Source of the DNA: Candidatus Atabeyarchaeum deiterrae
GTDB lineage: Archaea > Asgardarchaeota > Atabeyarchaeia > Atabeyarchaeales > Atabeyarchaeaceae
Length of the DNA: 64,000 nt
Direction of reading: 5' to 3'
Assembly: GCA_037310415.1 (NCBI GenBank)
Contig: CP147780.1
Coordinates: 640,001 to 704,000, forward strand
The position numbers and the translations under genes are program-made. The first letter of the stretch is position 1, and the number at the start of each line of letters is the position of its first letter. Below are positions 12,525 to 39,713 of the stretch, in pieces. Under the pieces are notes generated by a model. The model was not told the DNA's origin. It made no database searches and saw only the letters and a program-made list of their open reading frames with translations.

Positions 12525-13900
12525 ATGAACTTGGAGACAGATTCGTTGCGGCAGACCTATTCTAGAGTCAAAGACTTGCTGCGCGAACATCACAAATGGT
12601 TTGACAATAGCATTCCATTGATAGCAAGTGAGAATGTTCCAAGTCCTGCTATCCGTGCAGCTATCGTTTCAGACTTTGGCAACCGGTATGCTGAAGGCTG
12701 GCCTGGAGAGTGAATGCTCGTTCGGTCATGGTATGAGCATTCCCCAGAAAGCGCGTCTACGCCGGTACCAAATATATCGACCAGGTTGAACTGATCTGTG
12801 GTGAGTTAGCTAGAAGGCTCTTCAAGGCTGAGTTTGCAGATGTTAGGCCGATCTCGGGCGTCGTAGCCAACTTAGCGCTTTATACTGCCTTCACTGAACC
12901 AGGGGACAGAATGCTGGCCTTGCCAATCCCCTCTGGTGGCCATATTAGCCATGCAAAGAAGGATCTTGGCGGAACTGCGGGAGCCGTACATGGACTGAAA
13001 GTCCGATACTTTGAATACGATGAGAAAGAGTTCAATATTGATGTTGACGAAAGCGTCAAGCGTATCAGAAAGATGATCAAGAAAGGAAAGGTCATTAACC
13101 TTCTCATGTTCGGTGCGAGCGTCTTTCTCTTTCCTCACCCCGTCAGAGAGTTCAGAGACATCGCGGATGAAATGGGCGCCTTCATAGCGTACGATGGTGC
13201 CCATGTCGCTGGACTGATTGCTGGAGAGCGCTTTCAAGATCCTCTAAGGGAAGGTGCCGATGTCTTTTCTATGAGTACCCACAAGACATTACCAGGACCA
13301 CAAGGCGGTGCTCTACTCTCTTGGCAGAAGTACGGCGAACGCATAAAAAAGGCAGTTTTCCCGGGATTAACAAGCAACCATCATCTGAACACGGTCGCTG
13401 GGAAGACCATAGCTTTTCTTGAAATGCTGGCATTCGGCAAGGAGTACGCTGGGCAGATTATCGCAAACGCGAAGGCACTCGGACAAGCTCTCCATGAGGA
13501 AGGTTTCAATGTTCTTGCCGGACATAAGGGATTCACTGAGTCACACACTCTCTTGGTCGATGTAACAAACACTCCTCTCAAGAATGGTCATGCTTGCGAG
13601 AAGGCATTGGAAGCTGCGAACATCATCATAAACAGGAATCTCTTACCTTGGGACATAAGGGAGGGTCGTAACTATCTAGCTCCTGGAGGAATAAGGCTAG
13701 GCACCAGTGAGGTCACAAGGATCGGTATGAAAGCATCAGATATGAAACAAATAGCGACTTTCATGAAACGGGTTATCTTTGATCACAAAGATCCATCTGC
13801 CGTGGGTCAAGAAGTGGAAGGCTTCAGGCGATCTTTCAAGAAAGTCAAGTATTGCTTTGAGTCCCAGACGGGTGCTTACGAGTATTTCGACATAAAGTGA
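12525..13900 (+). CDS. glyA: Serine hydroxymethyltransferase, two exons (12525-12708 + 12750-13900), 444 aa when spliced
   Basis: Exon 1 LIASEN...NRYAEGWPG; exon 2 RVYAGTKYID...GGHISH, DGAH, STHKT, GIRLGTSE; GGAGG SD before ATG 12525. Confidence 0.95.
12709..12749 (+). other. 41-nt BHB intron in glyA
   Basis: Central helix CTGG/CCAG, bulges AGA and AAA, inner stem GAATGCTC/GAGCATTC; removal restores the frame. Confidence 0.9.
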
Positions 13901-28985: not shown

Positions 28986-29142
28986 GCGGCCGTGGTCTAG
29001 ACAGTGCCTTCCAAAAACGAATAACCTAGAATGGTCTAGGACAGAGGAAACGAGACAGTTTCCATCCAAAGGCCTCCCAAGTCTCTAACCCAGATTCTCT
29101 ATTCTTGGGGAGGAAACCCGGGTTCAAATCCCGGCGGCCGCA
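28986..29142 (+). tRNA. tRNA-Gly(CCC) with three introns: 29003-29031, 29045-29069, 29088-29115
   Basis: Spliced GCGGCCGTGGTCTAGACTGGTCTAGGACAGAGGCCTCCCAAGTCTCTAACCCGGGTTCAAATCCCGGCGGCCGCA folds as a cloverleaf. Confidence 0.9.
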
Positions 29143-29211
29143 CTCACATTCGGCATTGTTTCCTATCCTTTCAGTGCAAAAGGTTATTAAGCCATCAGCA
29201 ATTAGTGGAAA

Positions 29212-33802: not shown

Positions 33803-34151
33803 GGGTTATGAACCCCGACTCTCGACATCCTTTACGCTCACCAGTACCCTTCTCTAGGGAATCCACCCCGTGAATCCGAAAGCGCACCCGGTCAAACTTA
33901 CGACTGCTGCCTCCCGGCTCTCGTCGGATTTGTCTACAACGGTCTTCTCCATCTCCCCTACAGGAGATGTTCGACCACCAGATGCCCTCCGGGGCGAGGC
34001 TTCATGTCCCTCGGAAAAGGCTGTATGAACGCTTGGAATGCCTCAAGCCGGCATTCGGCCCGCCGTATAGGGCGTTTGCGGTACAGGGGAGTTCTAGCCT
34101 ATGGCTGGGGATCAGTCTAGGTCCCTAGCCCCCCGCCTAGGCTCATAACCC
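33803..34151 (-). ncRNA. ffs: SRP (7S) RNA with a 31-nt intron; ~318 nt mature
   Basis: Terminal helix GGGTTATGAGC/GTTCATAACCC; Alu TGTA motif; helix 6 GTAG loop; helix 8 GCC-GGGA-GGC-AGCAG; upstream TATA. Confidence 0.93.
34092..34122 (-). other. 31-nt BHB intron in SRP RNA helix 3 loop
   Basis: GGGGG/TCCCC outer stem, CTAG/CTAG central helix, bulges GGA and AAC, CCTA/TAGG inner stem. Confidence 0.85.
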
Positions 34152-39620: not shown

Positions 39621-39713
39621 GCCGCCGTAGCTCAGTCGGTCAGAGCGCCAGCCTTGTAATGCACCAGACATGACAGTTGGTGGTCGCGAGTTCGACTCTC
39701 GCCGGCGGCTCCA
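39621..39713 (+). tRNA. tRNA-Thr(TGT) with a 16-nt 37/38 intron (39659-39674)
   Basis: GCCGCCG/CGGCGGC-TCCA; anticodon arm CCAGC-CTTGTAA-GTTGG after excision. Confidence 0.93.

What the first reader, a model, noticed from the sequence alone, without database searches (positions are those of the whole stretch)
12696..12758. Obligate BHB intron inside a housekeeping protein-coding gene (glyA/SHMT)
Seen: the glyA frame runs ...NRYAEGWPGE, stops at TGA (12711-13), and resumes in another frame as RVYAGTKYIDQVE. The insert folds as a canonical BHB: outer pairs GC/GC (12701-02 with 12751-52), 4-bp central helix CTGG (12703-06)/CCAG (12744-47), 3-nt bulges AGA (12707-09) and AAA (12748-50), and an 8-bp inner stem GAATGCTC/GAGCATTC. 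Known: the archaeal splicing endonuclease EndA cuts after the second nt of each bulge. That rule removes 12709-12749 (41 nt) and gives CCT GGA GAG CGC GTC TAC, i.e. YAEGWPGERVYAG, the conserved SHMT active-site loop with no gap, in a 444-aa protein. The established archaeal mRNA intron is in cbf5; I do not know of one in glyA. Inference: one-carbon metabolism here depends on tRNA-type mRNA splicing, which could act as a control point.
Basis: partly seen in the sequence, partly recalled or inferred. Interest (0 to 1): 0.96.

Follow-up and report, generated by a model that had tools for sequence, protein, structure and literature searches.

The report
tRNA-type mini-intron splitting Asgard glyA
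The serine hydroxymethyltransferase gene of this Asgard (Atabeyarchaeia) archaeon is broken by a 41-base hairpin shaped like a tRNA intron, so the enzyme can very probably be made only after the mRNA is cut and re-joined, which the papers I could search report for only one other archaeal coding sequence (cbf5).

Summary
Observation confirmed. glyA runs 12525-12708, is interrupted by 41 nt (12709-12749) and resumes at 12750-13900. Removing those 41 nt gives a 444-aa SHMT, and Pfam lacks only the profile position of the split codon.

The insert forms a canonical bulge-helix-bulge (BHB): a 4-bp central helix, two 3-nt bulges, an exon-exon outer helix and a 10-bp inner stem. Shuffled inserts match this in the frame-restoring register 1.2e-4 of the time.

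Fourteen independent assemblies (three Atabeyarchaeia genomes, eleven metagenome contigs) carry an insert at the same site, 38-41 nt long, covering all three classes mod 3. Helices are 97% paired with three compensatory pairs, and loops are scrambled. Twenty-two other Asgard glyA genes read WPGE|RVYAG unbroken. A Njordarchaeum-like lineage nested among intron-bearers lacks the intron and matches the predicted splice product, suggesting precise loss (AU p=0.018). Both exons are under strong purifying selection. EndA alpha and beta and RtcB are present.

I verified four more protein genes in this genome (pcm, rio2, valS, mtaP) with BHB-type inserts, and three different mini-introns in glyA of another Asgard family. 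This scan has noted the same class before on other DNA.

No RNA read crossed the junction, so splicing is inferred. The 'control point' idea has no support.

The parts
12525..12708 (+). glyA (SHMT) exon 1: ATG at 12525, 61 full codons plus the first base (G12708) of the split Glu codon
   Evidence: ORF and translation. Pfam SHMT profile positions 4-54. dN/dS 0.03-0.09 against relatives.
12709..12749 (+). 41-nt BHB intron. If left in, translation stops at TGA 12711-12713.
   Evidence: Its excision restores a 444-aa ORF. An insert sits at the same site in 14 assemblies, 38-41 nt long. It is absent from 22 other Asgard glyA genes.
12750..13900 (+). glyA exon 2: AG completing the Glu codon, 382 codons, and the stop at 13898-13900. 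Contains the PLP-lysine motif STHKT.
   Evidence: Pfam SHMT profile positions 56-399, E = 6.6e-62. dN about 0.11 with synonymous sites saturated.
12701..12702 (+). Outer helix h, 5' strand (GC, exon 1). Pairs with 12751-12752.
   Evidence: Invariant in 12 of 12 sequences. Predicted independently by RNAalifold.
12703..12706 (+). Central 4-bp helix H, 5' strand (CUGG, exon 1). Pairs with 12744-12747. Includes the synonymous third base of the Pro codon.
   Evidence: All four pairs are invariant in 12 of 12 sequences. The Pro third base varies in intron-less relatives.
12707..12709 (+). Bulge 1 (AG|A). Predicted 5' cut after 12708.
   Evidence: Geometry read from the sequence. The cut rule follows from the review's BHB description. 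The cut gives the Glu codon seen in relatives.
12710..12743 (+). Inner helix h' and loop: G12710-C12743, bulged U12711, a 10-bp stem 12712-21 with 12733-42, and an 11-nt loop 12722-32
   Evidence: MFE fold. Three pairs show compensatory double changes, and the loop is not conserved.
12744..12747 (+). Central helix H, 3' strand (CCAG, intron)
   Evidence: Invariant in 12 of 12 sequences.
12748..12750 (+). Bulge 2 (AA|A). Predicted 3' cut after 12749.
   Evidence: Exactly 3 unpaired columns in the RNAalifold consensus. The middle base varies (A, U or G) and the outer two are always A.
12751..12752 (+). Outer helix h, 3' strand (GC, exon 2: last base of GAG and first base of CGC)
   Evidence: All 14 intron-bearing genes have GAG CGN here. 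Intron-less relatives mostly use GAA, and some use AGA.

Best explanation
This is a real archaeal bulge-helix-bulge (tRNA-type) intron inside the coding sequence of glyA.

Proposed mechanism:
1. The pre-mRNA folds so that exon bases CUGG (12703-06) pair with intron bases CCAG (12744-47). Two 3-nt bulges flank this helix. An exon-exon outer helix and a long intron hairpin brace it.
2. The genome's two-subunit (alpha-beta)2 splicing endonuclease EndA cuts after the second base of each bulge, that is after 12708 and after 12749.
3. RtcB ligase joins the exons to give ...CCU GGA GAG CGC GUC..., and probably circularises the 41-nt intron.
4. Only the spliced mRNA encodes the 444-aa SHMT. Unspliced mRNA ends at UGA one codon past the junction.

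The intron was inherited vertically within the Atabeyarchaeia/Njordarchaeum-like group. It appears to have been lost precisely in one lineage. It is one of several such introns in protein genes of an organism whose tRNA genes are almost all interrupted.

Shown: the anatomy, conservation, covariation, frame restoration, selection on both exons, and presence of the enzymes. Inferred: the cutting and ligation in vivo.
For: (1) Canonical BHB geometry at the stated coordinates, recovered independently by RNAalifold.

(2) The canonical cut rule gives a 444-aa ORF. Pfam SHMT continues 4-54 then 56-399. The junction residue is Glu, as in intron-less Asgard relatives.

(3) Chance of such a BHB in the frame-restoring register is 1.2e-4.

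(4) Fourteen independent assemblies carry an insert at the same site. Lengths of 38, 39, 40 and 41 nt cover all three classes mod 3.

(5) Across 12 distinct sequences, 97.2% of cells are paired against 22-45% for slid partners. Three pairs have compensatory double changes; 0-1 of 500 shuffles reach the observed pairing and covariation. The loop is scrambled.

(6) Exon bases inside the BHB are frozen only in intron-bearing genes: Pro CCU and Glu GAG in 14 of 14. The Arg third base just outside varies. Intron-less genes use CCC, CCA or CCG, and GAA.

(7) Both exons are under strong purifying selection: exon 1 omega 0.03-0.09, exon 2 dN about 0.11 with dS saturated.

(8) EndA alpha and beta paralogs and RtcB are encoded in the genome.

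(9) Four other protein genes of this genome show the same pattern. A BHB cut rule restores each conserved motif, and Pfam profiles are continuous across each junction.

(10) glyA of another Asgard family has three different BHB-like mini-introns.

Against: There is no RNA-level evidence. The one RNA-library contig that matches lies wholly in exon 2 (13419-13620), and nothing crosses the junction. No database protein joins an Atabeyarchaeia-type exon 1 to exon 2.

The fold energy of the region is unremarkable (z = -0.62).

The inner helix does not start flush: one pair, then a bulged U. Three contigs lack that first pair.

A genome-wide BHB plus frame-fusion scan showed no excess over shifted-cut controls, so BHB-like motifs alone are common.
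Confidence: 0.88

Rival explanations
1. The gene is broken. It is either a pseudogene or a gene split into a 62-aa and a roughly 330-aa polypeptide. The insert is never removed, and the SHMT-like paralog covers the function.
For: Gene callers in public metagenomes annotate it as two ORFs of 67-87 aa and 328-364 aa. A 392-aa SHMT-like paralog with 44% identity exists at G000 C1:82.7-83.9 kb. No spliced RNA was seen.
Against: Both exons are under strong purifying selection in all intron-bearing lineages. The insert's helices are conserved with compensatory changes while its loop is randomised, which a dead insert would not show. The first start codon in the exon-2 frame is 53 codons inside the conserved core. 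The paralog lacks the YAEG.PG.R loop.
Confidence: 0.04
2. The ribosome, not an RNA enzyme, skips the insert. This would be translational bypassing of the T4 gene 60 kind, or programmed frameshifting, helped by the hairpin and by the stop codon just after the junction.
For: In G000, G001, G002, L047 and L056 a stop codon (TGA or TAA) follows the split codon directly and lies at the base of a stable hairpin. This resembles the gene 60 take-off site (my own knowledge).
Against: There is no matching landing codon. Resuming at CGC 12752 would need landing on AAG, whereas the take-off codon is GAG or GGA. The immediate stop is missing in L054 and L059-61. Insert lengths cover all three classes mod 3, so no fixed frameshift works. 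The four other interrupted genes and the three f14 introns share only the BHB, not the bypass features.
Confidence: 0.02
3. The intron is spliced as described, and splicing efficiency additionally serves as a regulatory control point for SHMT and one-carbon flux.
For: Unspliced mRNA would terminate one codon past the junction, so output depends on splicing. In Haloferax, removal of a BHB intron from a 5' UTR seemed important for efficient expression of the gene (PMC7714728).
Against: No condition-dependent data exist. Similar introns sit in unrelated housekeeping genes (valS, rio2, pcm, mtaP) and at other positions in glyA of another family. One lineage lost the intron without other visible change. 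All of this fits neutral or selfish insertions better than a dedicated regulator.
Confidence: 0.1
4. The insert is an assembly or sequencing artefact of this genome.
For: None found.
Against: The insert is present in two closed genomes, one MAG and eleven contigs from separate JGI, ENA and SRA assemblies, with sequence divergence between them.
Confidence: 0.01

Closest known systems
cbf5 pre-mRNA intron of Crenarchaeota (Watanabe 2002; Yoshinari 2006; Yokobori 2009, PMC2738675)
   Same: A short BHB-type intron inside a protein-coding sequence. The host has a two-subunit EndA, the type linked to cleavage of relaxed motifs outside tRNA. It occurs in a lineage rich in tRNA introns. There is evidence of both gain and loss among relatives.
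   Different: A different gene (glyA, a metabolic enzyme rather than an RNA-modification enzyme) and a different phylum (Asgard, not Crenarchaeota). The BHB here is fully canonical rather than often relaxed. It is one of several interrupted protein genes in the same genome, and cbf5 itself shows no break in its TruB_N region here. Splicing of cbf5 was shown experimentally; here it is inferred.
BHB intron in the 5' UTR of Haloferax volcanii HVO_1309 mRNA (Schwarz 2020, PMC7714728)
   Same: An mRNA substrate of the archaeal splicing endonuclease, recognised through a BHB motif.
   Different: That intron lies in an untranslated leader, so it does not interrupt a reading frame. It was confirmed in vivo and in vitro.
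Non-canonical tRNA introns of Atabeyarchaeia and Freyarchaeia (PMC11291895; preprint 10.64898/2026.10.13.758758)
   Same: Same organism group, same motif, same enzymes, similar sizes, and repeated gain and loss.
   Different: Those papers describe introns in tRNA genes only. Neither mentions protein-coding genes or glyA.
HAC1/XBP1 unconventional mRNA splicing in eukaryotes
   Same: A protein-only cut-and-ligate removal of a short intron that changes the reading frame, with the exons joined by a tRNA ligase (RtcB in animals) (and my own knowledge).
   Different: There the cleavage is by IRE1 at paired stem-loops, not by the tRNA endonuclease at a BHB. It is stress-regulated, and no regulation is shown here.

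Membership tests
Archaeal BHB intron (substrate of splicing endonuclease EndA) | [quoted passage not shown] | tested here: met
   CUGG/CCAG helix with bulges AGA and AAA. All four pairs are invariant in 12 of 12 sequences. RNAalifold gives the same helix and a 3-nt 3' bulge.
Archaeal BHB intron (substrate of splicing endonuclease EndA) | Flanking helices h (exon side) and h' (intron side) | tested here: met
   h is 2 bp plus a 4-bp extension. h' is 1 pair, a bulged U, then a 10-bp stem with three covarying pairs.
Archaeal BHB intron (substrate of splicing endonuclease EndA) | Cuts after the second bulge base yield a functional product | tested here: met
   In silico only: a 444-aa ORF, Pfam profile continuity, and a junction codon identical to that of intron-less relatives.
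Archaeal BHB intron (substrate of splicing endonuclease EndA) | Host encodes EndA and an RNA ligase (RtcB) | tested here: met
   Two PF01974 genes at 103.9 and 70.4 bits: a 238-aa alpha-like and a 198-aa beta-like ORF. RtcB at 582 bits.
Archaeal BHB intron (substrate of splicing endonuclease EndA) | Intron is actually excised from RNA (spliced junction or circular intron) | tested here: inconclusive
   The only RNA-library contig covers 13419-13620, and no junction is covered.
Serine hydroxymethyltransferase (Pfam PF00464) | Full-length match to the SHMT profile, including the PLP-lysine motif | tested here: met
   The two exons together cover profile positions 4-399. STHKT is present in exon 2. 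The nearest full-length relative is named SHMT.
Translational bypass element (T4 gene 60 type) | Matching take-off and landing codons flanking the gap | tested here: not met
   The landing codon needed for the correct frame is AAG, whereas the take-off codon is GAG or GGA. The immediate stop is not conserved.
Programmed ribosomal frameshift | A fixed shift of +1 or -1 restores the frame | tested here: not met
   Inserts of 38, 39, 40 and 41 nt fall in all three classes mod 3, and the 39-nt one carries an in-frame stop.
Group I or group II self-splicing intron | Ribozyme core of hundreds of nucleotides | tested here: not met
   The insert is 41 nt. The Rfam scan of the window finds only SRP RNA and one tRNA.

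The most novel reading that the evidence does not exclude
In Atabeyarchaeia, and in at least one other Asgard family, the tRNA-splicing enzymes EndA and RtcB act as a general mRNA-splicing system. Short BHB introns have spread from tRNA genes into many housekeeping protein genes, often within conserved motifs. They are inherited vertically, gained independently at different sites of the same gene, and can be lost precisely. That would be intron dynamics of a eukaryote-like kind in the closest prokaryotic relatives of eukaryotes.
Probability: 0.6. Interest if true: 0.85.

Novelty: new member of a known kind. Interest (0 to 1): 0.72.

Why it matters
The papers I could search report only one archaeal coding-region BHB intron, cbf5 in Crenarchaeota, plus one 5'-UTR case. 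Here a core metabolic enzyme gene of an Asgard archaeon is interrupted in the same way. The comparative support is unusually clean: 14 copies, covariation, frozen exon bases, and an intron-less descendant that equals the predicted product. At least four more protein genes in the same genome follow the pattern.

There are practical consequences. Public gene calls for this gene are truncated to 328-364 aa or split in two. Metabolic reconstructions and pseudogene counts for these lineages can therefore be wrong.

There is also a conceptual point. It shows that protein-only, tRNA-type splicing can serve protein-coding genes in the group closest to eukaryotes. It also offers a tractable case for studying intron gain, maintenance and precise loss.

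Tried and rejected
(1) RNA evidence. One search for sequencing runs found a single wetland metatranscriptome holding 10% of the sampled words. Laying four runs gave one 202-nt contig inside exon 2 and nothing at the junction. This neither supports nor refutes splicing.

(2) Genome-wide de novo census. I scanned for BHB motifs whose canonical cuts fuse two coding-like frames. The first script timed out. Two later versions gave the same counts as shifted-cut controls at every stringency: 957 against about 950, and 77 against about 73. Ordinary gene boundaries swamp the signal, so I could make no count of mRNA introns in the genome.

(3) Intron origin. blastn-short of the intron against the whole genome found only chance matches of 13 nt or less. 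There is no sign of an intron family or a donor tRNA intron.

(4) Database search for a protein joining an Atabeyarchaeia-type exon 1 to exon 2, which would be a spliced transcript or an intron-less strain. Only the Njordarchaeum-like proteins at 78-80% appeared.

(5) The named-genome scan returned only the LC30 MAG as a close relative.

(6) Gain versus loss with five sequences was unresolved (AU p = 0.09). It became informative only with the denser set.

(7) An alternative excision 1-3 nt upstream would give Lys (PGK|RVY), as in bacterial SHMT. I rejected it because relatives have Glu at that position and because the BHB register gives Glu.

Full report
**The observation**

glyA starts at ATG 12525, a few bases downstream of a GGAGG (read). 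It reads ...NRYAEGWPGE, then hits TGA at 12711-13, and the SHMT frame resumes in another frame as RVYAGTKYIDQVE. Removing 12709-12749 gives a 444-aa ORF. Because AG is repeated at both ends, three neighbouring cut pairs give the same mRNA.

Pfam's SHMT profile matches exon 1 at positions 4-54 and exon 2 at positions 56-399. Exactly the split codon is missing.

The minimum-energy fold of 12690-12765 recovers the proposed helices. Its energy is ordinary (z = -0.62), so energy alone is not evidence. What is rare is the geometry in the one register that restores the frame. Only 49 of 400,000 shuffled inserts (1.2e-4) reach 4/4 central pairs with an inner stem of 8 bp or more. The real insert has 4/4 and 10 bp.

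**The cut rule**

In pre-tRNA the first two anticodon bases lie in the 4-bp central helix, and the adjacent bulges hold the splice sites (PMC4090602). The canonical 37/38 cut therefore falls after the second bulge base.

**The organism**

The window lies in a closed genome of 2,756,679 bp. That is exactly the length given for one of the two complete Atabeyarchaeia genomes from wetland soil (PMC11291895). A sister MAG is titled 'Promethearchaeati archaeon LC30'.

That paper reports introns in 92-95% of tRNA genes. ARAGORN finds only 24 tRNAs here, nearly all with introns.

The genome encodes two EndA-family proteins. One is a 238-aa ORF with the catalytic-type motif region, and the other is a 198-aa ORF without it. 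This fits the (alpha-beta)2 enzyme that a 2026 preprint reports for most Asgard genomes, and the two-subunit type has been linked to cleavage of relaxed motifs outside tRNA. RtcB is also present.

**Comparative evidence**

Among 40 relatives, only the two other genomes of the same family have a frame that opens at the exon-2 boundary. Twenty-two glyA genes from other Asgard families are continuous. They read ...YAEGWPGE|RVYAG... with GAA or GAG at the split codon. So the BHB cuts give the residue that relatives have. An excision 1-3 nt upstream would give Lys instead.

Metagenome and protein-database searches added eleven contigs from separate assemblies with an insert at the same site. Gene callers had split or truncated the gene in these contigs.

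Insert lengths are 38, 39, 40 and 41 nt, which covers all three classes mod 3. The 39-nt insert contains an in-frame stop. Only precise excision rescues all of them.

In a 12-sequence alignment, 97.2% of the cells of the proposed structure are paired (0 of 500 shuffles reach this). With partners slid by 1-3 columns the figure is 22-45%. Three stem pairs show compensatory double changes, and two sequences carry a C.A mismatch at one of those pairs. The covariation score is reached by 1 of 500 shuffles. The loop is unalignable. RNAalifold, given only the alignment, returns the same central helix, a 3-nt 3' bulge, the inner stem and a longer outer helix.

Exon bases that belong to the BHB are frozen only where the intron is present. 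Pro is CCU and Glu is GAG in all 14 copies, while the Arg third base just outside varies freely. Intron-less genes use CCC, CCA or CCG, GAA, and sometimes AGA.

Both exons are under strong purifying selection. Exon 1 has omega 0.03-0.09 with dS above 1. Exon 2 has dN about 0.11 with synonymous sites saturated. This excludes a pseudogene, and it makes the conserved intron helices stand out against a saturated neutral background.

**Gain and loss**

Two metagenome contigs, L040 and L041, are 81% identical to the window's exon 2. L041's product is 96% identical to the nr protein named for Candidatus Njordarchaeum guaymaensis. They lack the intron and read CCC GGA GAG/GAA CGA/AGA, which is the predicted spliced product with the formerly constrained bases now drifting.

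With five sequences their position was unresolved (AU p = 0.09). With 13 intron-bearing sequences they nest in a 100/99 clade with the intron-bearing L055 and L063. The AU test then rejects a single clade of intron-bearers (p = 0.018, delta lnL 14.3).

The most economical reading is one gain followed by a precise loss, as was described for cbf5. The loss could have gone through a spliced-RNA copy, or through deletion between the 2-nt AG repeats. I cannot tell which.

**Context in this genome and beyond**

Following leads from earlier notes of this scan, I checked four other genes myself. In each, one and only one BHB-type cut pair restores a split conserved motif, and Pfam profiles are continuous across the junction.

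| Gene | Insert | Pfam continuity |
|---|---|---|
| pcm | 29 nt | PCMT 3-59, then 61-208 |
| valS | 31 nt | tRNA-synt_1 2-73, then 75-414 |
| mtaP | 38 nt | PNP_UDP_1 2-173, then 176-232 |
| rio2 | 52 nt | Rio2_N to its end, then RIO1 from position 1 |

glyA has the most canonical motif of the five.

In another Asgard family (f14), glyA carries three different BHB-like mini-introns of 28, 26 and 29 nt at other conserved sites. Each is present in two genomes with varied loops. So glyA acquired such introns independently in two lineages.

Earlier notes of this scan also describe this class in other Asgard genomes, some with RNA-derived contigs lacking the intron. I did not test those.

**Rivals**

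- A broken or split gene is contradicted by selection on both exons and on the intron helices.
- Ribosomal bypassing has some appeal because a stop follows the junction in several copies. It fails for three reasons: there is no matching landing codon, the stop is not conserved, and the other introns lack such features.
- A fixed frameshift is excluded by the length classes.
- An assembly artefact is excluded by 14 independent assemblies.
The spread of similar introns over unrelated genes, and the loss in one lineage, favour neutral or selfish insertions.

**What is known**

A 2020 study states that cbf5 is the only reported additional BHB intron in an archaeal mRNA, besides its own 5'-UTR case (PMC7714728). 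A 2025 structural paper still cites only the cbf5 papers. The two papers on Atabeyarchaeia and Asgard introns deal with tRNA genes only. Four further searches found no report for glyA or for Asgard protein genes.

The kind, a BHB intron in an mRNA, is therefore known. The host gene, the phylum and the multi-gene context are new to the papers I could search.

**What is missing**

There is no RNA evidence. The single RNA-library contig lies in exon 2, and no database protein joins the exons. My motif-based genome census was uninformative. The intron has no sequence relatives in the genome.

**Verdict**

My confidence that this is a spliced BHB intron is 0.88. It is a new member of a known kind, and I score its interest at 0.72.

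Noticed in passing
L030:1369-1396, L030:1460-1485, L030:2154-2182 (same sites in L029, minus strand): glyA of another Asgard family (f14, genomes G019 and G029) is cut by three BHB-like mini-introns of 28, 26 and 29 nt. They sit at LIASE|N, YAE|GWPG and VAGK|A, all different from the site in the window. Stems are conserved and loops vary between the two genomes.
   Followed up: partly
G000 C1:321676-321704, 771193-771244, 457151-457181, 938160-938197 (outside the window; loci L050-L053): Four other protein genes of this genome (pcm, rio2, valS, mtaP) are interrupted by 29-52-nt BHB-type inserts within conserved motifs. The canonical cuts restore the motif, and Pfam profiles are continuous across each junction.
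   Followed up: yes
L040 and L041, around 390-410: A Njordarchaeum-like lineage nested among the intron-bearing glyA genes lacks the intron precisely. The exon bases that were frozen by the BHB have since changed (CCU to CCC; in L041 also GAG CGA to GAA AGA).
   Followed up: yes
window 33806-34148 (-): The archaeal SRP RNA match spans 343 nt for a 317-position model, which is consistent with an insertion. A first-stage note places a 31-nt BHB intron at 34092-34122. I did not examine it.
   Followed up: no
window 28986-29143 and 39621-39713 (+): ARAGORN run on the whole genome with intron search reports tRNA-Lys(CTT) and tRNA-Thr(TGT) here, both with introns. The default tRNA tool found none in the window. 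Only 24 tRNAs are detected genome-wide, so many must be too interrupted to be recognised.
   Followed up: no
L002:1351-2529 (G000 C1:82.7-83.9 kb): An uninterrupted 392-aa SHMT-like paralog (44% identity) lacks the YAEG.PG.R active-site loop (it reads HRYTAPDKFYMG). G001 and G002 also hold a copy. Its function is unclear.
   Followed up: partly
L054-L062 (metagenome contigs): Public gene calls for this gene are wrong in a consistent way: a 67-87-aa SHMT N-terminal ORF plus a main ORF truncated to 328-364 aa. The neighbours are conserved (Sec61-beta upstream, a CBS-domain protein downstream).
   Followed up: partly
L034:1797-2945 (-): The EndA beta-subunit gene lies next to a convergently oriented gene whose product reads like glycine-cleavage T protein (aminomethyltransferase), another one-carbon enzyme. 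I named it from the sequence alone. This is probably coincidence.
   Followed up: no
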